Shown: positions 5,711 to 23,574, counted from the first letter of the stretch. The stretch: DNA of 64,000 nt from a virus (IMGVR_UViG_3300038417_000475:1-64000), one strand, 5' to 3'. Translations and numbers: made by a program. Notes: a model not told the origin generated them from the sequence alone.

Positions 5711-6243
5711 TGGAACCGCCACAACTCGATATCACCAAAGCGACCGATGCAGAGATAGAGGCGTTCATCGAATCCATCCACCAGGCCGGCGTGAGGATCA
5801 AGTTTAATATCCGCCTCACGCAGGAGAGTTTTAACGAGTTCTTTGCAGGCTTTAAGTGCCAGCATTGCGGAGTCTGTTGCGCCGGCCTCCCCAATTCCAA
5901 ACCGCCGGTAGGAATCCTGCTGCGGCCTGAAGAGGTGGTATCCCTGGCGGCAGAGAAGAGGGTATCATCCAAGAAATTCAAGGAGGCCTATACCTTCACT
6001 GTCACCGGCCGCAGGGAGCGGTTCATGAAATACCCTTGTCCCTTTTTCTCCGCTGATAAGCAACACCATTGCTCTATCTATGCCAGGCGGCCAGCTGTCT
6101 GTCACTACTTCCCCCTGGCGGGCATGCTGCGGGGCAATGTTTACATAATGGAGATCGACAGCGATTGCCCAGAGGCCCGCAGGGTTGCCTGCGGGATAGC
6201 CAGGCAGATTAGAGACTCCAAGCGTAATCTATTGACAACGTAA
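5710..6243 (+). CDS. YkgJ-family (CxxCxxCC) cysteine cluster protein
   Basis: FKCQHCGVCC, CPFF, CSIYARRPAVCHYFP. Confidence 0.85.
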   Translation: MEPPQLDITKATDAEIEAFIESIHQAGVRIKFNIRLTQESFNEFFAGFKCQHCGVCCAGLPNSKPPVGILLRPEEVVSLAAEKRVSSKKFKEAYTFTVTGRRERFMKYPCPFFSADKQHHCSIYARRPAVCHYFPLAGMLRGNVYIMEIDSDCPEARRVACGIARQIRDSKRNLLTT

Positions 6244-6261
6244 GAACCGTTCCCCTAATCT
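6232..6261 (+). promoter_or_regulatory. class B promoter TTGACA-N18-TAATCT with AACG-N7-CGTT dyad
   Basis: TTGACAACGTAAGAACCGTTCCCCTAATCT; the same architecture recurs at 37506, 39455, 50171, 55067, 62200 and 62260. Confidence 0.7.
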
Positions 6262-6320
6262 ACCATCAGCGCCCATTTCCGCCGGGAGGCTTATTTTGTC
6301 AAAAATGCCGAGGTGGATAG

Positions 6321-7352: not shown

Positions 7353-8144
7353 ATGGAAAGAAAGCTCGGATGGCGTAAAGACAAGTTCGATGCCAGGGAT
7401 TACCTTCATTCTACGGCCTTGGTGGTCCCGCCCAGCGCCAATAACCAGGCGTATATTCCCTCGATAAGAGACCAGGGGCAGGAAGGCGCCTGCGTTGGCT
7501 TTGGCATCGGAGGCACTATCACTGCCGTACTGAAACAACTGGGCATCTACGTCGAATGGGTTTCGCCCCGGTATATCTACAACGGTGCCCGCTATATGGA
7601 AGGCACTCTGACGCAGGACTGCGGCTGCGAGCCTGGCGATGCTCTGGCCTGGTCAAAGAAAATGGGCGTCCTGCTCGAGCATTTCTGGCCCTATGTGGAT
7701 GTTCCGCTGGATACCAGTGCCCCATCGAGCAAGAGAGAAAAGGAAGCCGTCAAATACCCCAAGTTTACCTATACCCGTGTGGTAGACGGGCCCAACGGTA
7801 TCTGTTCGGCTCTGGCTGCAGGGCACATAGTCTCGATAGGAACTCCCTGGCCTGACAAATGGATGGATCCACCTAATGGGACTCTACCCGAGGTGAAAAG
7901 CTCTGATTTCGGGCAAGAGGGGCACGAGACATACCTCTTCGGCTATGATAAGACTCTGGTGACCCTCTACTCCACTGGTGTGTTCCCCTTCTTCGGGACA
8001 AATTCCTGGAGTACTGCCTGGGGTAACAAGGGGCTTTACACCATGCCATCCTCAGCCTTTGAGGTCATGAAGCAGATAGGCGGTTATGATGCGTACATCA
8101 TAACCTTCAATAAACCCAAGAAGAAGTGCCTCGGAATCTTCTAA
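7353..8144 (+). CDS. papain-like cysteine peptidase (family C1)
   Basis: RDQGQEGACVGF (Gln/Cys), GHETYLFGYD (His), NSWSTAWG (Asn). Confidence 0.9.
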   Translation: MERKLGWRKDKFDARDYLHSTALVVPPSANNQAYIPSIRDQGQEGACVGFGIGGTITAVLKQLGIYVEWVSPRYIYNGARYMEGTLTQDCGCEPGDALAWSKKMGVLLEHFWPYVDVPLDTSAPSSKREKEAVKYPKFTYTRVVDGPNGICSALAAGHIVSIGTPWPDKWMDPPNGTLPEVKSSDFGQEGHETYLFGYDKTLVTLYSTGVFPFFGTNSWSTAWGNKGLYTMPSSAFEVMKQIGGYDAYIITFNKPKKKCLGIF

Positions 8145-9088: not shown

Positions 9089-9118
9089 TTATTCTATTCT
9101 GACCGAATAACCGAACGA

Positions 9119-9143
9119 AGGAGGGGCCGAATAAGCCCCTCCT
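9119..9143 (+). terminator. GC-rich hairpin (terminator or processing stem)
   Basis: AGGAGGGGC-cgaataa-GCCCCTCCT; no clear U-tract. Confidence 0.35.
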
Positions 9144-9153
9144 GGAGGCGTTT

Positions 9154-9771
9154 ATGCCGACAATCTATCTGGACAAACTGGATCCCGAGTCCGAGCTATT
9201 GAGACGTTTGACGTTCCCGGGATACTCAGGCAGAAAATTCCAGGTAGAGCTGACAGAGACGATCACCTTTAGCGGTACACAGTGGGCGGGCGGCTCCAAA
9301 ACTGACTACCGCATTGTTCAGCTCGACGGAATGAAAGTCGTGGGGATCCCGGAAGCGCCCTTCCTGCAACGGTCGCCGCTTCATGAGGGTCAGTACCCGT
9401 TGCCGCCTGGCTATGTGGTGGTAAGCCATCACATATCCTGCGGGAAAGATCTGGGGCTGACCTTTGCCGTCAACCCCAGAGAGTCCTTCAAACTGCTGCC
9501 CAAGCCAAGCGAGGAGCTGACCCGGGCGCAGAAGATAGTGCTGGCGGCAACCGGCTACAAATCGAGCTATGGGGGCATAAAGGACCTCAGATTTCATGAA
9601 GCCCATGAAAAGACAGGGATCTCGCGCCAGGAATATGACCAGGCCAAAGAGTCGCTGATAAAGAAGGGTCTGTTCAATAAAGCCGGCGCCATTACACCCC
9701 AGGGGAGAAACGCGATCGGGAACCAAAGGCTGGAGGATTTTAGGGAGATGACAAGGGGGAGGTATGGGTAG
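9154..9771 (+). CDS. hypothetical protein with C-terminal EMTRG tag
   Basis: GGAGG RBS; ends ...REMTRGRYG. Confidence 0.7.
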   Translation: MPTIYLDKLDPESELLRRLTFPGYSGRKFQVELTETITFSGTQWAGGSKTDYRIVQLDGMKVVGIPEAPFLQRSPLHEGQYPLPPGYVVVSHHISCGKDLGLTFAVNPRESFKLLPKPSEELTRAQKIVLAATGYKSSYGGIKDLRFHEAHEKTGISRQEYDQAKESLIKKGLFNKAGAITPQGRNAIGNQRLEDFREMTRGRYG

Positions 9772-11245
9772 AATAACTGAATTCCGCAATGGCATGAGGT
9801 TCAACCCTCCGATTCTGCCGGATGCCTTCTGGCTGGCCTATAACTCTATCGCTCGAGCTGCCGTAAATGCCAAACCGCCGCCCTCTGTCATCTTAAGCAA
9901 AGAGAAGTCCCAGGAGGTCTACCGGGCATGGGTAGCTGAACTTCAAAAGTATGTGGCTGCCAACGGTAAATTCACCAAGTTCGAGGTGATCTATGTTCCC
10001 TTCTCGCCCCCTCCGTTCTTCTGGGATTACAAGTGCGGAAAGTGCAGGTGGTGGATCCAGGGTGGCTGCCAGCTCGTCGACGGAACAATCAACGCGAGGG
10101 GCTGGTGTGCCGTTCCTGGTACTCTAACCCCTACCCATAGAGGAGTATTACCCATCGAGGAAGTAATTCCAGGTGATATAGGATATTCGTTGAATGGGGC
10201 GTTCCATTCAAATAAAATAGCCGCTATCTCCATGAGAGAATACAGTGGGAGAATGTATAAACTGCAGGCAAACTACCTGTTGCCTCTCACTGTTACTCCT
10301 GAGCATATTCTATATGTTCAAAGGTTTATCTCCTCTACTACTAATAAAAGAAAGACTGGATATGCCATGAAATTGTTTTCTCCTGAGGAGATGACAGCTG
10401 AGAGGTTATACCAGAATGTCATGGCTGGTGACAAGTATCGTATTTTACAGCCTTATCCTCTAAATGAGGAATCATCATTAGGTTTGGATGGAATACTTGC
10501 CAGGTTCCTGGGGATATTTATGGCAGAAGCACATATATTGTATCGTGATGATGAACCAGCTGGAGCCGGATTTGACTTTGGAGAAGAACCCGAGCTAATT
10601 AACTTTATTGAGGAAGTCTGTAGCTCTAGATTCAGTGCTAACAGTACAGTTAGGCCTAATTCAAGAGGTGGACTCAACGTTAGAGTACATTCCAGTAAGC
10701 TAGCTAAATTCATCCTCAAGTACTTTAATGGTTCTCATTCAGCTAATGGTAAATCTCTTAGCAACGACGTTCTTTATCTCCCAAGAAGTCTACAGAGAGA
10801 TCTTTTACAGGGGATGCTAATTGGAGATGGCCATACAAGGGGTACCAATAATCAGCTGGGATCCTCTTCTCCTTCGTTGATATGGCAATCTGAAATCATC
10901 TTATGGAGAAGTGGTACCACTGGAAGCATGGGCAAAATGAGAGAAGGTGGCGACAAAGTAATAATCTCTGGGAGAGAGGTTAATAGAGGTCCATTTTATA
11001 GATTGTCTTGGTATCCCAAGCCCAATGGAGGAAGATTAATCCAAGAAGAACCTGGCCTATTATCATTTATGGTGAGGAAGATTGCTCCGACGCAATATAG
11101 TGGACCAGTACACGACCTATCAATGATTAATGAACCAAATTTCATTACACTTGGTGGTCTTAGTCATAACTGCGCCATCTGGCTGCCACCGGACAGCTAT
11201 AAACCGTTTACCTGGCCGCAGGAGCTGCTGGCTGGGAATTGGTGA
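9764..11245 (+). CDS. HiPIP-like Fe-S protein interrupted by an intein (spliced product 138 aa)
   Basis: Spliced sequence CGKCRWW...CQLVDGTINARGW|CAIW matches HiPIP CxxC...C...GWCxxW. Confidence 0.7.
   Translation: MGRITEFRNGMRFNPPILPDAFWLAYNSIARAAVNAKPPPSVILSKEKSQEVYRAWVAELQKYVAANGKFTKFEVIYVPFSPPPFFWDYKCGKCRWWIQGGCQLVDGTINARGWCAVPGTLTPTHRGVLPIEEVIPGDIGYSLNGAFHSNKIAAISMREYSGRMYKLQANYLLPLTVTPEHILYVQRFISSTTNKRKTGYAMKLFSPEEMTAERLYQNVMAGDKYRILQPYPLNEESSLGLDGILARFLGIFMAEAHILYRDDEPAGAGFDFGEEPELINFIEEVCSSRFSANSTVRPNSRGGLNVRVHSSKLAKFILKYFNGSHSANGKSLSNDVLYLPRSLQRDLLQGMLIGDGHTRGTNNQLGSSSPSLIWQSEIILWRSGTTGSMGKMREGGDKVIISGREVNRGPFYRLSWYPKPNGGRLIQEEPGLLSFMVRKIAPTQYSGPVHDLSMINEPNFITLGGLSHNCAIWLPPDSYKPFTWPQELLAGNW
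10106..11170 (+). mobile_element. intein with LAGLIDADG homing endonuclease (355 aa)
   Basis: N-terminal CAVPGT, block B TPEH, LGIFMAEA and LQGMLIGDG, C-terminal SHN followed by Cys; lower GC than the flanks. Confidence 0.92.
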
Positions 11246-11255
11246 GAGGTGAGAT

Positions 11256-11369
11256 ATGGCCAAGAAGAAGGGCGATACCAAGAAAGACATCGACCGGAGT
11301 ATGAAGGATAGTGGAGCCGGCAGCATAGCCAAGGCCGATGCCGAGTTCCTGAAAAAGCGGAAGAAATGA
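11256..11369 (+). CDS. small basic protein, 37 aa (not in ORF track)
   Basis: GAGGTGA RBS, MAKKKGDT...KKRKK, stop overlaps the next ATG. Confidence 0.45.
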   Translation: MAKKKGDTKKDIDRSMKDSGAGSIAKADAEFLKKRKK

Positions 11370-12901
11370 ACATCCTCTCTCCGGAGCAGATCGAGACCTA
11401 TAAGAAGCAGGGATGGAGGGTATTCCAGCCTGGCTTTGACGTCTCGTACAAAAGTCAATGGAATACTCCGTGGTTCATCATCCGGGAGTTCTTCCAGAAC
11501 GCCTTGGACGAACATGACGAGGCTGGAATAAGTGCGAAACCACGCCTGGCGGGTAGCAGCAAAGGAGTGGTGATCGAAGACCGGGGCAGAGGGCTGGGCG
11601 CCGAGAGCTTGATTCTCCGCGAGACAAAGGGCGGGGGAGATCTCCGCGGCCGGTTTGGAGAAGGGCTGAAATTTGCCTGCATATCCGCAGTCAGGCAAGG
11701 CTTTACCCCTGTCATTGAAAGCGCGAATGTCACTATCAGGGCATATGCGTCCCCTAGCGTCATGGGCAAAGCCCAGCTGAATCTCTTGACTTTCCTTTTC
11801 AAAGAGACTGCTGGATCCAGGTTAGGTACTCTGGTCACCATCGAGGGCTATCATGGCACCCTCTACACCGAGAATTTCACCACGTTTCTGGGGAGTCCCA
11901 TAGCGTGGAAAGATACCCAGATAGGGCGTTTTGTCAGAAGAGAAGCGGTCTACAGTAACCCGAAGGGCAATCTCTACGTCGGCGATATCTTCATCAAGAA
12001 GTTCGACAAACCAACATCCTACAGCTATAACCTCTGGGGGATAGATCTGAACCCCGACCGGATCTCGGAAATAAGGGTCCGTGATGTTTTAGACGGTATG
12101 GCCCGGCCATGGACTACAATCAAGAGCAGGGAACTGGCTACCAGTCTTATACGCGCAGTAACGGATGTTAGGTCGCAGGAAGCGGAGATATACTGGTCTG
12201 CCGGTCCCTCCCGAGCCGTGTTGTTGGCTGCCTGGCAGCAGCTATTCGGCCAGCGGGCTGTCCTCTCTACCGGCGAGCGTGACTCAAAACTGGCGGAAGG
12301 ATACGGCTATCGTGTTATGGGGAAGAGCTGGACATCGAATATCAGGTCACTGTTTAGATATAATGTCCCGGATGCCTCGGATATAGTAGAGGCTCGAGTA
12401 AAAGAGCTTTCTGCTCCCACCATTATTCCCTCCACCAGGCTTACCCAGAAGCAGCACCAGAACTTGGATATCATACGTTTTCTAACCGCTAACTGCCCAT
12501 CATGTAGTTATGAGGGCAGGAAACCCGTGATCGAGGTCGCAAGCATACGACCGGATCCACGGATTCAGGAGGTTGTGCTAGGGCTATGCGATTATGACGG
12601 GGGTAAAATCTACGTTGTACCTTCAGTATTGAACACTGAAGAAGACACGATAGCTACTTACTACCACGAGATGGGACACTGGGTAGGCGGCGAGATAGCT
12701 ATTGACGGCTCGATGAGCCATACCTAAGCAGTGCAGAGAATAGCTGCCCGGATATCGCTCCTGATGAGGCAAAAGACGGCTGATATTGATAGGATCTTGG
12801 GCGTTAAAAAGGCCCCTGCGCCCGCAGCTGCCCCGGCCTTTGTCCAGGCAAGCCAGGCGCAGCGATCGAAGCCTGAGATGACTAAGGGCAGGTATAGGTA
12901 G
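11366..12901 (+). CDS. GHKL ATPase fused to HExxH metallopeptidase-like domain; in-frame TAA at 12725-12727, frame continues to PEMTKGRYR
   Basis: IREFFQNALDE, IEDRGRG, GRFGEGLK (Bergerat fold); YYHEMGH; the reading frame resumes after the TAA and ends at TAG 12899-12901. Confidence 0.75.
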
Positions 12902-12912
12902 ATGGAGGCGAT

Positions 12913-13311
12913 ATGAGAGATCTGACTGCGAATGAGAATGAACTGCTCAAGCATGTGAGTAAGATGGGACACTGGCAGAGCTATGAGATCGTTAGAACTG
13001 AGTCAAAGGAATACGACTTGTACATCAAAGGTGCGTCTAAAGATAGCTCCAGTGCTACGAAGGGCACCACCTTCATATCCTGGCTGCCACTGGCTACTCT
13101 CTCTGTTATGAACTGGGCAGCCCCGGATATCTGGGAACTGAATAATGCTTATGGGGTGAAGGGCTTTACTCCACCTGGAGGGCCTGATTGGAGTGGAATC
13201 CGGGATAGTTCCACAGAGACGATCTGGAAGATGTTTGATATAGCCCTCTGGCGGCTGGGGATCAAGAAACGTAAAGGGCCAGAAATGACTAAGGGCCACT
13301 TCGGGAGGTAA
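12913..13311 (+). CDS. hypothetical protein with C-terminal PEMTKG tag
   Basis: GGAGG RBS; ends ...GPEMTKGHFGR. Confidence 0.7.
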   Translation: MRDLTANENELLKHVSKMGHWQSYEIVRTESKEYDLYIKGASKDSSSATKGTTFISWLPLATLSVMNWAAPDIWELNNAYGVKGFTPPGGPDWSGIRDSSTETIWKMFDIALWRLGIKKRKGPEMTKGHFGR

Positions 13312-13313
13312 GA

Positions 13314-13802
13314 ATGGGAAGAAGCTCGAGAGATATTGATATCCCTGCTGCCATAAAGCTGGCTAGGACAGGCAGGCTGGAATCCTGGTCGACGGGCTTG
13401 CTGCAGCGGATAGACGAGAGGAAGGTTGTCCGGGCAGAGCTGTTTGATGATGGGAAGGTGGCCCTCTATTACCCCGACCCCAAGAGCCCCCATGGGTACC
13501 GGGGGAAAGGGGACAGAGAGCTTTTCCAGGAATTCATTTTGCCGAAGAAGAAATTCACTTATACCTATGTGCCCTGGAACAGCGCGATCCCTGGCCACCC
13601 GGACCTCCCCTTCGTTATGTCCCTGGGTACCATCCGGACCGTGCCGGAGAATTACTATGTAGCCGATGTCTACAAGGATCTTTCCCTCATGTTCGACTCA
13701 AGGCTGGAAGCGGCGACGCGGAATGTCGACAGGGCCTCCGTTAGGAAATGGTGGGAGCAGAACAAGCCCGAAATGACGAAGGGCAAGATGGGGAAGAAAT
13801 GA
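13314..13802 (+). CDS. hypothetical protein with C-terminal PEMTKG tag
   Basis: GGAGGT RBS; ends ...KPEMTKGKMGKK. Confidence 0.7.
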   Translation: MGRSSRDIDIPAAIKLARTGRLESWSTGLLQRIDERKVVRAELFDDGKVALYYPDPKSPHGYRGKGDRELFQEFILPKKKFTYTYVPWNSAIPGHPDLPFVMSLGTIRTVPENYYVADVYKDLSLMFDSRLEAATRNVDRASVRKWWEQNKPEMTKGKMGKK

Positions 13803-13839
13803 AGCCCGATATCTTCAGGCAAAGCGCGGGAAGCCACTG

Positions 13840-14343
13840 ATGAGCTATAACTCGAAAAATGTCAGGGCCAACGTGTGCCACAAGATTTACATGGCCCTTC
13901 TGACCGAAGAGAGGCGCAGTCAACCCGGTATGGCCTTGTCTCAGCAACAGAGTGAAGATATAAGGCTCGATACCGAAAGCGTCACGGATCTCATCGAGCA
14001 GGAATACAGCAGCAAGGGGGGAGCTGGCGCCCTCTGGCTGGACCGCATGCTCAAAGATCTCAACTGGCTGGCCGATATCCAGGAAAAGGCCTGGGCGGTT
14101 CAAAAGGAAAAGAAAGCGGCAGCGAAAAACTGGCTCTGGTCCCAACAGGGCTGGGCCACTGAAGCTCAAGCCAAGGCCGTTGCCACCAGGCTCCGGGTGG
14201 AGAATTACGTGGTGGAACCAGGCTATGAAAACAAAGCCTGGAGGCTGAAGGTAAGGATCGATACCATTCCGGAGAGCACCCGCCAGGCGCCCCATGCCGT
14301 GCTGTGGGACGCAATAAAGAAAGCTGAGGGGAAATCTCGATGA
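13840..14343 (+). CDS. hypothetical protein (true start may be 13799 across a 1-nt indel)
   Basis: ORF in operon; the coupled ATG at 13799 is one base out of frame. Confidence 0.55.
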   Translation: MSYNSKNVRANVCHKIYMALLTEERRSQPGMALSQQQSEDIRLDTESVTDLIEQEYSSKGGAGALWLDRMLKDLNWLADIQEKAWAVQKEKKAAAKNWLWSQQGWATEAQAKAVATRLRVENYVVEPGYENKAWRLKVRIDTIPESTRQAPHAVLWDAIKKAEGKSR

Positions 14344-14567
14344 GCGGGAAAGGGCGCATTGTCGGAGTCGGTAAAACCTCGCCGGTTTGTCTGCCGGCAC
14401 GCTGTAGCCATACAGACCATCTTTTCGGCAAGGCTATGAGGTGCCCGCTACCCTGCGCCCCCTTCAAGGCGGTCTGCCCGGCTCATTCCCTCCCGGAGGC
14501 CCCGAGACCCGACGAGTTTGCCCGGGCAATCCGGATGTGCCTGGAACAGGAGAGGAGAAAATTCTGA
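14340..14567 (+). CDS. Cys-rich hypothetical protein
   Basis: Start and stop both overlap neighbouring genes. Confidence 0.5.
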   Translation: MSGKGRIVGVGKTSPVCLPARCSHTDHLFGKAMRCPLPCAPFKAVCPAHSLPEAPRPDEFARAIRMCLEQERRKF

Positions 14568-14998
14568 TGCCTAGAATCTTTCAGGAGCCAAACTATGGCG
14601 TAACAGAGAGGTCCCTGGAGTGGGTGCGCCGTTATAAGTCTGATTTGGGCCCTCTCTTCCGGATTCGTTGCTTTATCCATCCCCACCGGGTTGCTGGGCT
14701 TGAAGGTGACCAGTGGGTAGAGTTTGAAGATCAAGCCGGCAATAAGATAATCGCTACCGGTTTCGGATGGGGATATCCGGGGACTGGACCAGCCGGCCTG
14801 GCCAAGATCCTGCGTGAATTGGGAATTCAAGGTCAAATTATTACCACGGCGCGTTGGCTTACTCAAAATAGCGAGTGGAGAATCGATATTAAGGAGAATA
14901 CTGCCACCGTGAAACTCAAACAGGAGATGACCGGAGGGGAGAGCAGCTGGGAGATCATGGGTTATGTCAGGTATTCGGCAGGAGATTGCAGAAGATGA
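14567..14998 (+). CDS. hypothetical protein with FxWGYxGxGP motif; degenerate EMTGG near the C-terminus
   Basis: GFGWGYPGTGPAGLAKIL, a motif similar to the 33938 protein. Confidence 0.6.
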   Translation: MPRIFQEPNYGVTERSLEWVRRYKSDLGPLFRIRCFIHPHRVAGLEGDQWVEFEDQAGNKIIATGFGWGYPGTGPAGLAKILRELGIQGQIITTARWLTQNSEWRIDIKENTATVKLKQEMTGGESSWEIMGYVRYSAGDCRR

Positions 14999-15324
14999 CT
15001 GTCGAGATCCGGAAAAGACAGGTAGGGGTTACCGACCGCTGGATAATCGAGGCGGTCGATGGCAAGCAGGTCCGGAACGAGCTGGATATCGATTTCGCCC
15101 TGGCCGGCAATCCTGCAGTCAAAAAGTACATCCCTCCGGACCAGCTCTGGGTGGAGATGATGTCAGACAAGACGGAGTGGCCCTGTTTCATTGTCCACGA
15201 GGACTGGGAGGATGGCCGCGTAGACCAGGGTATGCCGTATGAAGTAGCGCACGAGGAAGCCAACGTCCTGGAGAGACTGTGCCGGCAAGGGAAAATGGAG
15301 CTGACGGTATTCAGGCCGGGATAA
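14995..15324 (+). CDS. hypothetical protein, possible zincin-like (HExxE...H)
   Basis: FIVHEDWE...YEVAHEEA. Confidence 0.5.
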   Translation: MTVEIRKRQVGVTDRWIIEAVDGKQVRNELDIDFALAGNPAVKKYIPPDQLWVEMMSDKTEWPCFIVHEDWEDGRVDQGMPYEVAHEEANVLERLCRQGKMELTVFRPG

Positions 15325-15334
15325 GGAGGGAGAA

Positions 15335-15634
15335 ATGGCCCAATATTGCATGTTCAAGCAACCTGAGGTTATTGCTCGGCAGAAGGAATGGGAAAAGAAG
15401 ACGGATGACGAGATCCGCCGCCAGATGGAGAAGCTGAATCTTGACAAACCTTCGGAAGAGGAGCGATACAAGGCGGCAGTAAACGTCTTGATCTCTCGGG
15501 GATGGGGTGTAGAAGTGAAGCGGCGGCCCTCGTCGTATAAGCACAAAACTGGCGGCATGACCATACACCACGAAGGATTTGTGCTGGCTTTCCACCGGCC
15601 AAAGGTGGAGATGACCAAGGGACATAATAAGTAA
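15335..15634 (+). CDS. hypothetical protein with C-terminal EMTKG tag
   Basis: AAGGAGG RBS; ends ...KVEMTKGHNK. Confidence 0.7.
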   Translation: MAQYCMFKQPEVIARQKEWEKKTDDEIRRQMEKLNLDKPSEEERYKAAVNVLISRGWGVEVKRRPSSYKHKTGGMTIHHEGFVLAFHRPKVEMTKGHNK

Positions 15635-15646
15635 CTGGAGGGTGAC

Positions 15647-16078
15647 ATGAAATGTGATCTCAGCGCACCAGCGGAGAGCTGTGAGTGCAAGAAGCTGCTA
15701 TGCAAGGCAATGGCCGAGGCATTGGAACATGAGGCAGAAGAATTCCGAGATTATGCTGAAATAGCTCGGAAGGCGGGCGGCTTCCCGGGAACAGCACAGC
15801 CGAGGCCTTCTTTCTCTGCGGATGAATACCATAGCCTTGTCAGGGAGCTGGATGCTCAGAAGTTCCTGCGATGGGGTATGGTCAATGCCCATGGTTTGCT
15901 GGTAGGCGATTACAATAATCTCTCGTATGCCCAGAAGATGAGCGAAGAGATACGGATGGGGCAACAGAAAGACCAGGCCACGCCAGCAAAGCACGCAGCA
16001 GAAGCCCTCGAAGGCGCAGCCAAAGCCTTGAGACAGGCGGCTGCCTTTGGTTTTCTCAACTGTATCCAGGAGGCATGA
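15647..16078 (+). CDS. hypothetical protein
   Basis: GGAGG RBS. Confidence 0.55.
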   Translation: MKCDLSAPAESCECKKLLCKAMAEALEHEAEEFRDYAEIARKAGGFPGTAQPRPSFSADEYHSLVRELDAQKFLRWGMVNAHGLLVGDYNNLSYAQKMSEEIRMGQQKDQATPAKHAAEALEGAAKALRQAAAFGFLNCIQEA

Positions 16079-16404
16079 GCTTGGACCCGAAAGATTTACT
16101 GCCTGCATCGCCCCGGGATGGCCCGCCTCTGCCGAAAGGACTGGGGGTCAAATGGTCTGGGGGAAACCCCCAGACCTACGAAGAGTATCGGGCCTATGAA
16201 ATGAACAGGCAGGAGATTATCAGTAGAAATCGCTCCCGCCGGCTGCGCGGGCTGCCGCTCCTGCCCCAACCTCCGAAGGTGGCACCTCCCAAGAAACGCG
16301 TTGTGTATAGCCGTGAAAAGGATGGCAGCCTTACTTACGAAGGCACTCTGCGAGAAGGGGAAGATGTACCCGAGGGGATGGTTCTCAAGTTGGAGGACTA
16401 TTGA
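16075..16404 (+). CDS. hypothetical protein
   Basis: AGGAGG RBS, ATGA overlap. Confidence 0.55.
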   Translation: MSLDPKDLLPASPRDGPPLPKGLGVKWSGGNPQTYEEYRAYEMNRQEIISRNRSRRLRGLPLLPQPPKVAPPKKRVVYSREKDGSLTYEGTLREGEDVPEGMVLKLEDY

Positions 16405-16808
16405 ACGAGCTGGTATCGCCCTACGTCGGATATCGAACTGACGAGTTCCGGGGCATAGGTGAAGGAAACGAGGATCTCCTGGAAGTCACCCGGCATGAGA
16501 TGAGGGAGCTGGGGAACCAGGATATCCCCTATACCCTGATACACCGGGGCGCTATCAGGAGCACGAGCGGAGTGAATGACTACCTCCTCCAGCTCTACAA
16601 GAGCAGATACAGAAAGTGTGTCTGGCTCTGCGACTCCATGGAGCACCTGATAAGCAGCTACTTTGAGCCTCCAGAGAAGCCCGAAGTGGTGACCAGGTGG
16701 GCGTTCTCCCCTGGGACGTGGAAGATCATCTCTGACCTCGGAGAAGAGGGCAAGCTGATAGCCTACCTGGGCGATCCCCTGGTGACTGAAGTGCCCGTAC
16801 CTCGCTAA
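16401..16808 (+). CDS. hypothetical protein
   Basis: GGAGG RBS, TTG start overlapping the upstream stop. Confidence 0.55.
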   Translation: MNELVSPYVGYRTDEFRGIGEGNEDLLEVTRHEMRELGNQDIPYTLIHRGAIRSTSGVNDYLLQLYKSRYRKCVWLCDSMEHLISSYFEPPEKPEVVTRWAFSPGTWKIISDLGEEGKLIAYLGDPLVTEVPVPR

Positions 16809-21207: not shown

Positions 21208-21379
21208 ACCTGCGTGCTCAGAGGAAACTCTGCCAGAAGATGCACGCCTGTGTAGGGCAGGGTACGTCTGGACAAGGCCAGAAGATCAGAAGGTGATGGA
21301 TCAGTGTCCTGACTGCCAGTTCTTCCCTGAGAACTGTGCGGAGAGCAAACAGACACCCTGCCAGTATTGGGCAACGTAA
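21146..21379 (+). CDS. Cys-rich hypothetical protein
   Basis: CxxC pairs; AAGGGGG RBS. Confidence 0.45.
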   Translation: MPIYVVADREQTCTHCQGTIEPACSEETLPEDARLCRAGYVWTRPEDQKVMDQCPDCQFFPENCAESKQTPCQYWAT

Positions 21380-21435
21380 GCAACCTCATGTCGAGTGACA
21401 GAGGAATAGATAGAGAAGGAGCAGGAGTTGAGAGA

Positions 21436-22341
21436 ATGAAAGCATGGCGAAACACGGCAATCGTTATGGGAGTTATGACCATCCCTGTGAAGCTGTACTC
21501 TGCTACAAGCGATCACGATATGGAGCGGCATAATCTCCACGCCAAAGACGGCGGAAGGGCAAAGCAGGGAAGCAAATTCTGTAGCAAGTGCAAGGCCGAT
21601 TTAGATGATACGAACACGGTGAAGGGCTACGAGGTCGGCAAGGATAGAGATATCATCCTGACTCCGCAGGAGCTTGCCACCATCAGCCTCAAGTCGGCCA
21701 AGGCAGTTGAGATCGTGGAGTTTACCGCCAGTGACAAGGTTGACCCACGGATGCCTGAGAATCACTACTTCGTTGCACCAGAGGACATGGGGAAGAAGGG
21801 CTTCTCCATCCTGCTGGAGACGATGCAGGACACGGGGCTGTTTGCCATCGGCAGGGTAGTCTTCAGTGAGACCAAGGAGACCCTTGTCCTGATGCGACCC
21901 TTCGGCCACGTCCTGATGCTGCACACGCTGGCATGGGCTGATGAGCTGAGGGATGCCTCAGAGCTTACCGATACCACCGTGGCAATCTCCGACAAAGAGC
22001 GTGAGCTTGGCAAGATGCTGGTGGAAGTTATGGTCGGCGATGGTGACATTAGCAAGTTCCACGACCAGTATCAGGAACAGCTCAGGGCTTTGATCGAGAC
22101 GAAGGGGTTGGGCGGTGTCATCGAAGTCCAGCCAGAACGTACTGAGGAACAGGTGGCGGCTGTGGATGCAGCGGAGCAGCTCCTGGCGAGCATTGTGGCG
22201 GTACAGAAGAGTCAGAAGAGCAAGGGCACAGTTCTCCGGGCTGGCGAAGGGGAAGTCCCCACGGAGTTGGAGCCTGAGTTGTCGCCCAAGCCGAAGAAAA
22301 CGGCCAAGGCGAAACGCTCTGCCAAAACAGTAGCAGCTTAG
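21436..22341 (+). CDS. ku: prokaryotic Ku (NHEJ DNA end-binding protein)
   Basis: MKAW...IPVKLYSAT, VKGYEVGK, IVEF, YFVAP, LHTLAWADELR, D.SKFHDQY. Confidence 0.92.
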   Translation: MKAWRNTAIVMGVMTIPVKLYSATSDHDMERHNLHAKDGGRAKQGSKFCSKCKADLDDTNTVKGYEVGKDRDIILTPQELATISLKSAKAVEIVEFTASDKVDPRMPENHYFVAPEDMGKKGFSILLETMQDTGLFAIGRVVFSETKETLVLMRPFGHVLMLHTLAWADELRDASELTDTTVAISDKERELGKMLVEVMVGDGDISKFHDQYQEQLRALIETKGLGGVIEVQPERTEEQVAAVDAAEQLLASIVAVQKSQKSKGTVLRAGEGEVPTELEPELSPKPKKTAKAKRSAKTVAA

Positions 22342-22501
22342 TGAGACTAGACTGCGTTCGGATTGAGCCTAGCCCTTTGCGCTAGGATTGAGCCTGACCC
22401 TCTAGCCTCTCACGTCAGGGCGAGTCCGTAGACACCGTGTCATTGACACAGATGCCAGCGGAACGCCCTGCGGTGAGCGACTAGCTCGAAAGGGGGTCTA
22501 T

Positions 22502-22675
22502 ATGGAAATACCTGTCGTAGTGCAGGCTTCCAGTCTCGCCTATCCTCTGGAAGAGGAAGACTTCTTTGCGGAAGAGCGACTCCGCAAGGAGATGGGAAAT
22601 CAGGAAGCCCGCCATCTGGATGATGGCGATGAGTGGCCTTGCCAGCATCTTTCTACCAATGGGGGTGGGCTATGA
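22502..22675 (+). CDS. small acidic protein, 57 aa (not in ORF track)
   Basis: AAGGGGG RBS; stop overlaps the ligase ATG. Confidence 0.45.
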   Translation: MEIPVVVQASSLAYPLEEEDFFAEERLRKEMGNQEARHLDDGDEWPCQHLSTNGGGL

Positions 22676-23574
22676 ATCTACCGATGAAGTGCCAGAAGCA
22701 GAAGAAACCCTTCAGCTCCAGCCGACATCTCTTTGAGCCAAAGGTGGACGGTTGGCGGTTGAGGATGGTCACCAAGACAGAGTATGGTCAGGTCGAGCTG
22801 GATGGAGAGGTGGCTGTCCTGGATGCCCAGGGCGTGCCCCGCCTTCACCTTGTCCAGCAAAGAGGACAGGACGATCCCCTGTTTCTCAAGACAGCCATGC
22901 GGGATTACCCCGCCCTGTTCTTTGGGTTCGATATCCTTCAGTGTGGGGGCAGGGGTGATCTACACCTGACTCCCCTCAAGACTCGAAAACGGATACTGAC
23001 GGATATTTGGCCTGCTCTGAGGAAGAACGGCGTTCATCTCTACAGCAAGAACGGGCATGATATAACAGGCCGCTTCCCTGAGCTGGGCGATCCCCGGAAT
23101 TGCAAGCTCCTGTCCTGGGTTGAGGGAGATGGGGAAGCACTTTTCGAGAAACTCTGTCTTGCTGGTTGGGAAGGCGTGGTGGGCAAAGAGCTGGAGTCGC
23201 CATACCTCTACGACAGCAGGACGAAGCTCTGGATCGCCTCCAAGAGGCCGAAGATCGAGGGGGATTTCGTCATCTGCGGTGCTACCCTGGGCAAGGGAAA
23301 CCGTGAGGGCTTGGTCGGCTCCCTGATACTCGGAGAGCCAACGTCTAGGGGACTGATCTACATGGGAGAGGCCGGCACAGGACTCGGCTTCGCCGATCTG
23401 CGAAGGTTGACCGAGAAGCTGTCCCGCAAGGATGCCTGTCCCTTTACTGACAGGCCGAAGATCGACGGATTCTGGTTCTGGTCTGCGCCCACAGTCAAGG
23501 TGGAGATCGCCTATGTCGAGCGCACCAAGGATAACAAGCTGCGGGAGCCGGTGATAAAGCGCCCGCCGATGTGA
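22672..23574 (+). CDS. ATP-dependent DNA ligase (LigD/LigC-type ligase domain), internally rearranged
   Basis: EPKVDGWR (I), LDGEV (III), FGFDIL (IIIa), EGVVGK (IV), OB domain GEAGTG and LREPV (VI). Confidence 0.9.
   Translation: MNLPMKCQKQKKPFSSSRHLFEPKVDGWRLRMVTKTEYGQVELDGEVAVLDAQGVPRLHLVQQRGQDDPLFLKTAMRDYPALFFGFDILQCGGRGDLHLTPLKTRKRILTDIWPALRKNGVHLYSKNGHDITGRFPELGDPRNCKLLSWVEGDGEALFEKLCLAGWEGVVGKELESPYLYDSRTKLWIASKRPKIEGDFVICGATLGKGNREGLVGSLILGEPTSRGLIYMGEAGTGLGFADLRRLTEKLSRKDACPFTDRPKIDGFWFWSAPTVKVEIAYVERTKDNKLREPVIKRPPM

What the first reader, a model, noticed from the sequence alone, without database searches (positions are those of the whole stretch)
9154..15634. Unrelated proteins share a C-terminal '(P)EMTKG + basic tail' tag: candidate packaging or sorting signal
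Seen: otherwise dissimilar ORFs end with REMTRGRYG* (9745), KPEMTKGRYR* (12872, past an internal TAA), GPEMTKGHFGR* (13279), KPEMTKGKMGKK* (13767) and KVEMTKGHNK* (15608). A degenerate QEMTGG sits at 14924. The codons vary synonymously (GAG/GAA; ACT/ACG/ACC/ACA; GGC/GGA/GGG), which points to selection on the peptide rather than a DNA repeat. In the five strong copies the motif is 3-5 residues from the stop. Inference: a cargo-loading or processing signal, analogous to the T4 capsid-targeting sequence or encapsulin cargo peptides, that directs a variable set of effectors into the virion. One cargo is a GHKL-ATPase/HExxH fusion, recalling injected anti-defence proteins. The C1 protease (7353) or S8 protease could be the processing enzyme.
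Basis: partly seen in the sequence, partly recalled or inferred. Interest (0 to 1): 0.9.

Follow-up and report, generated by a model that had tools for sequence, protein, structure and literature searches.

The report
Shared C-terminal peptide tag, peat virus
Several unrelated accessory proteins of an uncultured peat virus-like element end in the same short peptide (…E-M-T-K-G plus a few basic residues), which looks like an undescribed address or processing label read by one still unknown partner.

Summary
Five + strand ORFs at 9.1-15.6 kb end in [E]-M-T-[K/R]-G followed by 3-5 residues and a stop. The DNA pattern occurs 5 times against 0.10 expected. These are the only in-frame copies in the 85-kb genome.

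Selection acts on the peptide, not the DNA:
- All 4 synonymous wobble sites of the core vary, against 2 of 11 other sites (p=0.011).
- Between two strains, one tag differs by 3 synonymous and 0 non-synonymous changes.
- No RNA structure is shared around the tags.

The tag is portable:
- Seven mutually dissimilar protein bodies carry it in this virus and its strain variants.
- 13 of 13 database relatives keep it 2-5 residues from the end.
- A strain with about 79 extra residues inserted still ends in the tag.
- 0 of 27 homologues of the GHKL/HExxH protein in other lineages have it.

The tagged genes lie in a strain-variable cassette region.

The best reading is a docking or processing tag. Virion loading, with cutting after the invariant Gly by the neighbouring papain-like protease, is the leading but unproven version. 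The "basic tail" partly encodes the next gene's ribosome-binding site.

This scan has noted shared N-terminal tags on other DNA, but not this C-terminal one.

The parts
6232..6264 (+). Promoter-like motif TTGACAACGt..G.A.CGTT..TAATCT, upstream of the + strand gene run that holds the C1 peptidase and all tagged genes
   Evidence: TTKACAACG occurs 7 times against 0.54 expected. Near-identical extended copies stand before structural-type genes (50200, -), the tRNA (39484, -) and the lipid cluster (62229, -). Function as a promoter is inferred.
7353..8144 (+). Papain-family (C1) cysteine peptidase, 263 aa, same gene run, 1 kb upstream of the first tagged gene. Candidate reader or cutter of the tag (untested).
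   Evidence: PF00112 E 9.9e-7, 29.5 bits against cut-off 20.7. PDB 3ois_A E 1.4e-9. 3649 homologues at E<=1e-3. Q41, C47, W219 invariant and H191, N217 nearly invariant in 61 sequences.
9154..9771 (+). Tagged gene 1 (205 aa, weak winged-helix signal). Tag core plus tail at 9745-9771 (EMTRG-RYG-stop). The next gene's ATG (9764) and its GGGGGAGG ribosome-binding site lie inside the tail.
   Evidence: Orthologues P0037, P0040 (DMTKGRY) and P0041 (EMTKGRYE, with an 8-aa insertion upstream of the tag).
11366..12727 (+). GHKL-type ATPase / HExxH protein body (453 aa), ending at an in-frame TAA (12725-12727) that replaces a conserved Lys
   Evidence: phrog_6077 E 3.6e-15. 27 homologues of 406-590 aa run on past this point. 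Invariant N45/D48, D72/G74/G76, G95/G98/G100 and H434/E435/H438. HATPase_c sub-threshold in 6 of 24. TAA also present in strain L042.
12728..12901 (+). In-frame continuation of the GHKL gene (57 codons: conserved helix, Pro/Ala linker, tag 2). Tag at 12875-12901 (EMTKG-RYR-stop).
   Evidence: Over the last 50 codons, dN/dS is 0.13 between window and L041. Within the tag there are 3 synonymous and 0 non-synonymous changes.
12913..13311 (+). Tagged gene 3 (132 aa, orphan). Tag at 13282-13311 (EMTKG-HFGR-stop). The whole gene is absent in a variant strain.
   Evidence: Joint 12897->13310 in runs X22 and X18 and in L041. Orthologue P0033 ends EMTKGRMGR.
13314..13802 (+). Tagged gene 4 (162 aa, orphan). 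Tag at 13770-13802 (EMTKG-KMGKK-stop). In a variant strain about 79 residues are inserted exactly between KP and EMTKG, and the tag stays terminal.
   Evidence: Joint 13769->13839 with 606 letters between. Body dN/dS 0.24.
14924..14938 (+). Degenerate internal copy (EMTGG) in ORF 14441-14998, 19 residues before the stop. Possibly a decayed tag.
   Evidence: Not followed further.
15335..15634 (+). Tagged gene 5 (99 aa, orphan). Tag at 15608-15634 (EMTKG-HNK-stop). This gene lies in a ~1.5-kb stretch missing in variant strains.
   Evidence: Orthologues P0035, P0036 (HNK), P0038 (KAGR) and P0039 (RLGR). Loose end behind 15159 in X22 and X12.

Best explanation
The motif is a portable peptide tag. 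Its consensus is [K/G]-[P/V/L/R]-[E/D/Q]-M-T-[K/R]-G-[R/K/H]-hydrophobic-x-(K/R), ending 2-5 residues after the invariant Gly. It is appended to at least seven unrelated accessory proteins encoded in a strain-variable, co-directional gene run of an uncultured peat virus-like element.

SHOWN:
- It is maintained by selection on the amino acids.
- It stays at the C-terminus when the protein body changes.
- It is lineage-specific rather than part of any of the protein families that carry it.

INFERRED:
- It is a short linear motif read by one common partner, that is, an address or processing label.
- The version I think most likely is as follows. The tagged proteins are made together with the structural-type genes, since both have the same promoter-like motif. 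The tag docks them to a virion or assembly component, so that a swappable set of enzymes travels with the DNA. These enzymes include a GHKL/HExxH protein, a ParB-like protein and a winged-helix protein.
- The short, fast-evolving tail after the invariant Gly would be removed by the papain-family peptidase encoded 1 kb upstream. Ubiquitin-like precursors and adenovirus precursor proteins are trimmed in this way.

My odds:
- A peptide-level tag read by a common partner: about 0.6.
- That partner being a virion or assembly component: about 0.25.
- Cutting after the Gly by the C1 peptidase: about 0.15.
The confidence figure given is for the general statement together with the packaging reading as the leading variant.
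For: Position and number:
- 5 copies against 0.10 expected, all 3-5 codons before a stop. None elsewhere in the 85 kb.

Peptide-level selection:
- In 8 DNA copies (5 from the window, 3 from L041), 4 of 4 synonymous wobble sites of the five-codon core vary, against 2 of 11 other sites. Both of those 2 are conservative (K/R, E/Q). Fisher p=0.011.
- The orthologous tag 2 differs between window and L041 by CCT>CCC, ACT>ACC and AGG>AGA, with no amino-acid change. dN/dS is 0.13 over 50 codons.
- Across 13 database proteins the only core changes are E>D, E>Q and K<>R, and M, T and G never change.

No nucleic-acid element:
- RNAalifold finds 0 pairs over 7 tag regions, and DNA conservation is confined to the 14-nt core.
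- There are no + strand terminator-like sites at the tags.
- The distance to the next start varies from 19 to 39 nt.

Portability:
- The bodies are unrelated.
- A new ParB-like body in strain L041 ends in LQMTKGRMGR.
- A ~79-aa insertion (L041, P0003) and an 8-aa insertion (P0041) both leave the tag terminal.
- 0 of 27 GHKL/HExxH homologues (34-64% identity) have MT[KR]G anywhere. After the conserved helix they carry other C-terminal modules instead, such as a SAP domain in 3 of 24, or Zn-ribbon-like ends.

Context:
- The same extended promoter-like motif precedes this gene run and the structural-type genes.
- An intact papain-family peptidase lies in the same run.
- The domain types (HExxH metallopeptidase-like, ParB-like, a methylase upstream at 904-1935) match those listed for 'polyvalent proteins' delivered with phage or plasmid DNA (PMC5512222, passages read).
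Against: - No partner is identified, and no binding, cutting or packaging is shown.
- No capsid, portal, terminase or packaging ATPase was recognised among the 69 ORFs scanned by Pfam or PHROGs. 'Virion' is therefore itself an assumption.
- Only 5 of roughly 100 genes carry the tag, and all are neighbours. Adjacent tags share wobble choices: tags 3 and 4 are 14 of 15 nt alike, and the two adjacent L041 tags are 24 of 27 alike. Strain indel breakpoints lie at or next to tags. Local recombination or gene conversion therefore contributes to the sharing.
- The tail's Gly/Arg/Lys content is partly explained by the purine-rich ribosome-binding site or overlapping start of the next gene, in 5 of 8 copies.
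- The GHKL copy in this strain, and in L042, is separated from its tag by a TAA. At least one 'cargo' is therefore probably untagged here.
- The promoter-like motif also precedes a tRNA and a lipid cluster, so it does not mark late genes specifically.
- The tag was found only in this species-level cluster of peat viruses. That is weak, because tag-only matches score 8-28 bits and cannot be detected in billion-sequence databases.
Confidence: 0.45

Rival explanations
1. Degron. The tag marks a set of accessory proteins for timed destruction by a host AAA+ protease or by one of the element's own proteases, so that they act only in a defined window of the infection.
For: - The motif is terminal, exposed and basic, and sits on otherwise unrelated proteins.
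- Two protease genes are present in the element.
- C-terminal degrons on phage proteins, including basic MuA-type ClpX signals and the lambda CII tail, are known. This is recalled and was not checked in a call.
Against: - Degrons usually tolerate much sequence variation. Here M, T and G are invariant in 13 of 13 relatives plus 8 DNA copies, and the conserved core is not at the very end.
- No ClpX, Lon or adaptor gene was seen among the ORFs scanned.
- Nothing was tested directly.
Confidence: 0.15
2. Docking to a non-virion hub. The tag tethers the proteins to a host or viral hub (for example DNA or the nucleoid, a replication or transcription factor, or a secretion or transfer ATPase) rather than to a capsid.
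For: - In other lineages the same GHKL/HExxH family carries nucleic-acid-tethering modules (SAP in 3 of 24, Rho_N in 1 of 24) at the position where this lineage has the tag.
- The tail has net positive charge.
- The element encodes a clamp, Ku, ligase, ParA, helicases and an integrase.
- C-terminal positively charged transfer signals of type IV secretion substrates are a known precedent (recalled).
Against: - The tag does not resemble clamp-binding motifs, which are hydrophobic (recalled consensus).
- No type IV secretion or coupling protein was seen in the scanned ORFs.
- Part of the positive charge is explained by the overlapping ribosome-binding site.
Confidence: 0.15
3. Nucleic-acid-level or historical by-product. 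The shared 3' end is kept because it is a recombination joint for cassette exchange, or part of the translational-coupling region for the next gene. The peptide itself would do nothing.
For: - Strain indels begin or end at tags: 13769|13770 is exactly KP|EMTKG, and 12897->13310 runs from one tail to the next.
- Adjacent tags share wobble choices.
- Shine-Dalgarno sequences and start codons overlap the tails in 5 of 8 copies.
Against: - Variation falls on wobble sites (4 of 4 against 2 of 11, p=0.011).
- Orthologous tags differ only synonymously.
- The substitutions seen are conservative at the protein level: E/D/Q and K/R.
- The distance to the next start is not fixed, at 19-39 nt.
- Untagged genes in the same run are just as tightly coupled.
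- There is no shared RNA structure.
- The 412-nt indel junction has 8 unrelated letters and does not cross inside the core.
Confidence: 0.12
4. Cis-acting nascent-peptide signal. The last residues act inside the ribosome tunnel at termination to tune expression of the downstream gene.
For: The motif always lies 2-5 residues from the stop, in a tightly packed gene run with overlapping stops and starts.
Against: - The variable distance to the stop and the use of three different stop codons fit poorly with a tunnel-register mechanism.
- Tag 2, tag 5 and the window's tag 4 are not followed by an overlapping start.
- Only some junctions in the run have the tag.
Confidence: 0.05

Closest known systems
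Family 1 encapsulin targeting peptides (cargo-loading peptides)
   Same: A short peptide at the extreme C-terminus of unrelated cargo proteins. It has a small or hydrophobic core followed by basic residues (consensus quoted as SDGSLGIGSLKRS) and is read by one shell protein (PMC8346489, passages read).
   Different: The sequence is different. No HK97-fold shell gene was recognised here. The tagged genes are accessory genes of a mobile element, not metabolic cargo next to a shell gene. Binding is untested.
Phage T4 capsid targeting sequence (CTS) of internal proteins
   Same: A ~10-residue terminal peptide that suffices to bring proteins into the prohead core, with the head protease processing the core (PMC9958956, passages read). 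The logic is the same: a label on dispensable proteins that travel with the DNA.
   Different: The CTS is N-terminal and this tag is C-terminal. The T4 protease is a dedicated prohead serine protease, whereas the neighbour here is a papain-family cysteine peptidase. No head genes were recognised here.
Polyvalent proteins of phages and conjugative elements
   Same: The same repertoire of domains (HExxH metallopeptidase, ParB-like, methylase, peptidases) proposed to be delivered with the DNA (PMC5512222, passages read).
   Different: In polyvalent proteins the domains are fused in one giant polypeptide. Here they are separate small genes that share a terminal tag. MPTase-PolyVal matched only 1 of 24 family members, at E 0.09. 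The paper's supplementary lists were not seen.
C-terminal trimming after Gly of ubiquitin-like precursors and adenovirus precursor proteins (recalled, not checked in a call)
   Same: An invariant Gly preceded by conserved residues and followed by a short, variable tail, with a cysteine peptidase encoded nearby.
   Different: The bodies are not beta-grasp proteins. No E1/E2-like genes were seen in the scanned ORFs. The adenovirus consensus has Gly at P2. Cleavage is not shown.
Shared N-terminal address tags noted earlier by this scan in huge phages (e1-370441, e1-5405153 and others)
   Same: Many unrelated accessory proteins of one phage lineage share a short terminal peptide, and the partner is unknown.
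   Different: Those tags are N-terminal and sit on dozens of proteins in 200-470-kb phages. This one is C-terminal, on 5-7 neighbouring genes of an 85-kb element.

Membership tests
Encapsulin Family 1 targeting peptide | C-terminal peptide matching the TP consensus (…LTVGSL… / SDGSLGIGSLKRS) | tested here: not met
   Tag consensus is [EDQ]MT[KR]G+. The TP consensus was taken from PMC8346489.
Encapsulin Family 1 targeting peptide | HK97-fold encapsulin shell gene next to the cargo genes | tested here: inconclusive
   No capsid or encapsulin family was found by Pfam or PHROGs in the ORFs scanned.
T4-type capsid targeting sequence | N-terminal ~10-aa leader removed by the prohead protease | tested here: not met
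   The tag is C-terminal in 5 of 5 window copies and 13 of 13 relatives.
Sortase sorting signal (LPXTG) | LPXTG, then a hydrophobic segment, then a positively charged tail (recalled definition) | tested here: not met
   Only 2-5 residues follow the Gly, there is no hydrophobic segment, and the core is xEMTKG.
Ubiquitin-like precursor processing | Invariant C-terminal Gly followed by a short variable tail | tested here: met
   Gly is invariant. Tails of 2-5 residues differ between orthologues: HFGR/RMGR and HNK/KAGR/RLGR.
Ubiquitin-like precursor processing | Beta-grasp body and E1-like activating enzyme | tested here: not met
   The bodies are unrelated to one another. One is a 510-aa GHKL/HExxH protein. 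No ThiF/E1 or JAB family was found in the scanned ORFs. Not every ORF was scanned.
Integron gene cassette / attC | Imperfect palindromic recombination site of 57 bp or more after each ORF | tested here: not met
   There are 0 consensus pairs around 7 tags, and intergenic gaps are 2-40 nt. A tyrosine recombinase exists elsewhere in the genome, but no attC-like element does.
Type IV secretion C-terminal signal | Net positive, Arg-rich C-terminal tail (recalled definition) | tested here: met
   The residue after Gly is always R/K/H, and most tails end in R/K. This is partly explained by the overlapping ribosome-binding site.
Type IV secretion C-terminal signal | Coupling protein and T4SS genes in the element | tested here: inconclusive
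   None was seen in the ORFs scanned. About a third of the ORFs were not scanned.
GHKL ATPase (tagged protein 2) | Bergerat-fold motifs N (ExxxNAxD), G1 (DxGxG) and G2 (GxxGxG) | tested here: met
   N45/D48, D72/G74/G76 and G95/G98/G100 are invariant in 24 sequences. The Pfam HATPase_c match is only sub-threshold, in 6 of 24, best E 0.01.

The most novel reading that the evidence does not exclude
A virus-encoded 'cut-after-Gly' C-terminal address system. Any accessory gene that acquires the 10-residue tag is docked to an assembly component, trimmed by the element's own papain-family peptidase, and delivered with the genome. Strains would then swap their delivered counter-defence enzymes as tagged cassettes. 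This would be a C-terminal, cysteine-protease-linked counterpart of the T4 capsid targeting sequence, in a virus without recognisable head-tail genes.
Probability: 0.12. Interest if true: 0.8.

Novelty: new variant of a known kind. Interest (0 to 1): 0.5.

Why it matters
Terminal address peptides decide which proteins travel with a viral genome. They are also used as tools to load foreign proteins into capsids and encapsulins.

A C-terminal tag of about 10 residues would be a compact, testable handle for two things. It is portable between unrelated enzymes and is kept under amino-acid-level selection. First, it could help find the assembly or processing partner in a virus whose particle genes are all unrecognised. 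Second, it could help read which accessory proteins such viruses deliver.

It also shows how a cassette region can exchange genes while keeping one functional label. If it turns out to be a degron or a hub-docking motif instead, it would still define a co-regulated set of otherwise orphan proteins.

Tried and rejected
Chance: rejected.

Paralogy of the bodies: rejected at BLASTP level.

RNA or DNA structure, terminator or attC-like site: no support.

Stop-codon recoding as the reason for the internal TAA: unlikely. TAA ends tagged genes 3 and 5, and the only tRNA found is tRNA-Met.

Relatives in IMG/VR:
- The pattern for KPEMTKG gave 40 loci. Of these, 33 are one unrelated repeat that reads KQEKPEMTKGC between stop codons, and 7 are internal chance matches.
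- EMTKGRMG gave 0 loci.
- EMTKG[R/S]Y gave 14 loci, none a terminal tag of this kind.

Searches with the GHKL protein:
- The single protein found nothing in IMG/VR.
- The family alignment found 5 loci at only 24-28% identity, with no shared C-terminal k-mers.
- The family alignment found nothing in GTDB genome contigs.
- blastn of 7.2 kb against GenBank phages gave no match.

A profile of seven 42-aa tails against 5.8 billion proteins returned only orthologues of the known bodies (13 hits). This is weak evidence of restriction, because tag-only matches score 8-28 bits.

Protein Atlas:
- Tagged protein 3 gave a weak Peptidase_M15_4 lead (score 0.92, family on 25% of members). I did not see the catalytic motifs I recall for that family, so I did not adopt it.
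- The 283-aa structural candidate has only viral hypothetical neighbours, with TM below 0.5 by query.

PDB profile search of the GHKL family: only E 0.65-0.97 to snake-venom metalloproteinases.

Expression: no RNA holder was listed among 24 runs.

Literature: open-access searches found no description of this tag.
- (phage, capsid and targeting-peptide terms), listings only.
- (literal EMTKG / PEMTKG / MTKGR): 7 papers hold a term; the 5 listed are unrelated by title.

Clamp-binding motif, PDZ-type recognition of the free C-terminus, and the sortase signal were considered and set aside on sequence grounds. The core is polar, it lies at a variable distance from the end, and there is no hydrophobic segment.

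Full report
**What is there**

The window is the first 64 kb of a single 85,151-bp contig, which the tools treat as a virus record.

On the + strand, five ORFs end in the same peptide:

| Gene | Coordinates | Length | Ending |
|---|---|---|---|
| 1 | 9154-9771 | 205 aa | REMTRGRYG* |
| 2 | 11366-12901 | 453 aa, a TAA, then 57 in-frame codons | KPEMTKGRYR* |
| 3 | 12913-13311 | 132 aa | GPEMTKGHFGR* |
| 4 | 13314-13802 | 162 aa | KPEMTKGKMGKK* |
| 5 | 15335-15634 | 99 aa | KVEMTKGHNK* |

- The DNA pattern GARATGACNMRNGG occurs 5 times against 0.10 expected. No shuffle of 100 reaches 5.
- A six-frame search of the whole genome finds only these five plus an internal EMTGG at 14924, 19 residues before its stop.
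- A relaxed search over 1194 frames adds nothing credible.
- Uniform placement would put all five within 2-5 residues of the stop with P of about 5e-9.
- With the last 14 residues removed, the bodies have no BLASTP similarity to each other (best E 0.05).
- Pfam and PHROGs leave four of the five without any family. Gene 1 has a sub-threshold winged-helix hit. Gene 2 matches phrog_6077, of unknown function.

**Peptide or nucleic acid?**

I compared eight DNA copies of the tag: five from the window and three from a variant strain, L041.

- All four wobble positions of the five-codon core that can change synonymously are variable.
- Only 2 of the other 11 positions vary, each in one copy and each conservatively (AAG/AGG = K/R; GAG/CAG = E/Q). 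Fisher one-sided p=0.011.
- The orthologous tag of gene 2 differs between the window and L041 by three synonymous changes and no amino-acid change. The last 50 codons of that gene give dN/dS 0.13, from 9.5 synonymous and 4.5 non-synonymous differences.
- The body of gene 4 gives dN/dS 0.24.
- RNAalifold on seven tag regions predicts no pair, and DNA conservation is limited to the 14-nt core.
- No + strand terminator-like site lies at a tag.
- The distance from the core to the next start codon ranges from 19 to 39 nt.

I conclude that the core is kept for its amino acids.

Two nucleic-acid effects are nevertheless real:
- In 5 of 8 copies the Shine-Dalgarno sequence and/or the start codon of the next gene lies inside the tail codons. 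This helps explain why the tail is rich in Gly, Arg and Lys.
- Adjacent tags share wobble choices. Tags 3 and 4 are 14 of 15 nt alike. The two adjacent L041 tags are 24 of 27 alike. This points to local recombination or conversion.

**Relatives and portability**

The stretch is held by 24 listed peat or wetland metagenome runs from 24 coded studies. Of these, 23 hold half or more of the sampled words, and 5 may be the source of the DNA.

I laid the contigs of four of these runs on 9100-16450. They reveal a variant strain with cassette-type differences:
- Gene 3 is absent as a whole (joint 12897->13310, in runs X22 and X18).
- The 69 nt from 13770 to 13838 are replaced by 606 nt. The left breakpoint falls exactly between the KP and EMTKG codons of gene 4.
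- About 1.5 kb that includes gene 5 is missing (loose end behind 15159, in X22 and X12).

A JGI contig of that strain, L041, shows what the 606 nt are:
- Gene 4 carries about 79 extra residues and then ends in GKPEMTKGRMGK*.
- It is followed by a new 112-aa protein ending in KLQMTKGRMGR*.
- This new protein has a precomputed PF02195 ParB-type annotation and a DGIHR motif. My own Pfam scan at E<=0.01 did not reproduce the annotation.

A profile of seven 42-aa tails searched against 5.8 billion proteins returned 13 proteins, all orthologues of these bodies. All 13 carry [E/D/Q]MT[K/R]G 2-5 residues from the end.

- Their tails differ between orthologues: HFGR/RMGR, HNK/KAGR/RLGR and RYG/RY/RYE.
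- One of them has an 8-aa insertion just upstream of the tag.

The GHKL/HExxH protein shows the opposite. It has 27 homologues at 34-64% identity, 406-590 aa long, and none has MT[KR]G anywhere. After a conserved helix they carry varied C-terminal modules. SAP domains occur in 3 of 24, Rho_N in 1 of 24, and others have Cys-rich ends.

So the tag is not part of that family. It was added in this lineage, at the place where relatives carry other, probably tethering, modules.

**Limits of the distribution claim**

- Leave-one-out scoring shows that a match to the tag alone reaches only 8-28 bits. That is below what a search of billions of proteins can report. Absence of further tagged families is therefore weak evidence.
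- IMG/VR holds no relative by three degenerate patterns. By the GHKL alignment it holds only distant ones, at 24-28% identity.
- GTDB genome contigs hold none. GenBank phages hold none by blastn.

**The GHKL gene is interrupted**

- TAA at 12725-12727 stands where homologues have Lys. Homologues read HT-K-AVQ and the window reads HT-stop-AVQ.
- The stop is also present in the near-identical strain L042.
- TAA is an ordinary stop in this genome, and only a tRNA-Met is encoded.
- The downstream 50 codons are under purifying selection between strains. However, L041 starts after the TAA position, so I cannot say whether the stop is strain-specific.
- In this strain the enzyme body is probably made without its tag.

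**Context**

- The tagged genes lie in a co-directional run from 6321 to about 16800.
- An intact papain-family peptidase lies in that run at 7353-8144.
- Before the run stands TTGACAACG followed by an ACG-N7-CGT dyad and TAATCT. Near-identical copies stand before the structural-type genes (50200, - strand), a tRNA (39484) and the lipid cluster (62229). The nonamer occurs 7 times against 0.54 expected.
- The structural-type module has an S8 protease with a LAGLIDADG insertion, a glycosyltransferase, and beta-rich and coiled-coil proteins. No recognised capsid, portal or terminase is present.
- Elsewhere the element encodes a clamp, Ku, ParA, an ATP-dependent ligase, UvrD- and DnaB-type proteins, a tyrosine recombinase and a cytosine methylase.
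- The domain types on or near tagged proteins are HExxH metallopeptidase-like, ParB-like, methylase and peptidase. These are the types listed for polyvalent proteins, which are thought to enter the cell with phage or plasmid DNA (PMC5512222, passages read; its supplements were not seen).

**How it most likely works**

Shown:
- The tag is a terminal, portable peptide under amino-acid-level selection on unrelated accessory proteins.

Inferred:
- It is a short linear motif read by one partner.

The anatomy has three parts:
- An invariant M-T-(K/R)-G core.
- A helix-breaking Pro or Gly just upstream in most copies.
- A short tail that evolves fast and varies in length.

This fits recognition of an internal register near a free end. 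It does not fit recognition of the carboxylate itself. It resembles precursor ends that a cysteine peptidase trims after Gly, such as ubiquitin-like precursors and adenovirus precursors (recalled, not checked in a call).

Three pieces of context add to this:
- The promoter-like motif is shared with the structural-type genes.
- The papain-family peptidase lies next door.
- The domain repertoire is like that of polyvalent proteins.

I therefore rank virion or assembly docking, with trimming after the Gly, first. My odds are about 0.25 for docking and about 0.15 for the protease step. The broader reading, that it is a tag read by a common partner, I put at about 0.6.

Rivals are:
- A degron.
- Docking to a non-virion hub, such as DNA or a replication or transfer factor.
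- A recombination or translational-coupling by-product.
- A nascent-peptide effect.

None is excluded. The by-product reading is the one the data argue against most directly.

The decisive computations (co-folding and structure prediction) were not available.

**Comparison with what is known**

- The closest functional analogues are the C-terminal targeting peptides of Family 1 encapsulins (PMC8346489, passages) and the N-terminal capsid targeting sequence of T4 (PMC9958956, passages).
- The tag is not a member of either family. The consensus and the terminus differ, and no shell or head gene is recognised.
- It is not a sortase signal, because it has no hydrophobic segment. It is not an attC-type cassette site, because it has no structure.
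- Open-access full-text searches found no description of it. Searches gave listings only. One search covered the literal motifs; 7 papers hold a term, and the 5 listed are unrelated by title.
- This scan has reported shared N-terminal tags in huge phages on other DNA. Later checks priced the packaging reading of two of them at 12-13 in 100. I used that as a base rate.

**Verdict**

- This is a new variant of a known kind, a terminal address or processing peptide on viral accessory proteins.
- It is unusual in three ways: it is C-terminal, it has an invariant Gly with a trimmed-looking tail, and it sits in a strain-variable cassette region next to a papain-family peptidase.
- Against it: the tag is so far seen in one species-level cluster of peat viruses, on 5-7 genes, and its function is unknown.
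- Interest: 0.5.

Noticed in passing
window 12725-12727: An in-frame TAA replaces a conserved Lys (HT-K-AVQ) in the GHKL/HExxH gene. It is present in the window and in strain L042. The 50 codons behind it are under purifying selection between strains (dN/dS 0.13). This could be a recent nonsense mutation, a split gene or read-through.
   Followed up: partly
proteins P0006, P0008, P0009, P0019, P0021, P0022, P0024 (homologues of window 11366-12901): By eye, seven of the 27 GHKL/HExxH homologues carry another recurrent motif, [FY]-P-x-[IV]-x-Y-[KT]-P, at or near the C-terminus. Four others end in FETPRLAGEW…FG[MR]… . These may be lineage-specific C-terminal modules or tags in other viruses. Their contigs could not be fetched.
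   Followed up: no
window 9100-16450 (runs X22, X18, X12; locus L041): This is a strain-variable cassette region. Gene 12913-13311 is present or absent. A 606-nt insertion adds a ~79-aa extension and a ParB-like gene. The stretch 14580-14759 is replaced by 160 other letters. A 6-nt insertion follows 14975. About 1.5 kb (15160 to about 16690) is missing in variants.
   Followed up: partly
window 6232(+), 26385(+), 39484(-), 50200(-), 55096(-), 62229(-), 62260(+): TTKACAACG occurs 7 times against 0.54 expected. Four copies extend to TTGACAACGt..G.A.CGTT..TAATCT, which looks like a -35 box plus an operator-like dyad plus a -10 box. They stand before the tag gene run, the tRNA, the structural-type genes and the lipid cluster.
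   Followed up: partly
window 50221-52539 (-): A 772-aa subtilase (PF00082, E 7.8e-37) is interrupted by a LAGLIDADG/Hom_end homing-endonuclease (intein-like) insertion at about residues 375-450.
   Followed up: no
loci L001, L002, L004-L022, L025, L026, L028, L029, L031, L033-L036, L038-L040 (IMG/VR, mostly sample 3300045988): 33 large viral contigs (about 24-225 kb) share a near-identical stretch that reads KQEKPEMTKGC in one frame, between stop codons. This is an unrelated conserved element that matched the tag pattern by chance.
   Followed up: no
window 7353-8144: The stand-alone papain-family peptidase has no signal peptide or propeptide that I noticed. It belongs to a large family of similar ~250-300-aa proteins: 3649 representatives at E<=1e-3, and 63 at E<=1e-30. 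None of the best 150 has a tag-like end.
   Followed up: partly
genome 75202-76095 (L048 11202-12092) and window 21367-23574: A tyrosine recombinase (PF00589), a Ku-like protein (phrog_4873) and an ATP-dependent ligase occur together with ParA and a clamp. The element may integrate or persist as a linear or plasmid-like replicon.
   Followed up: no
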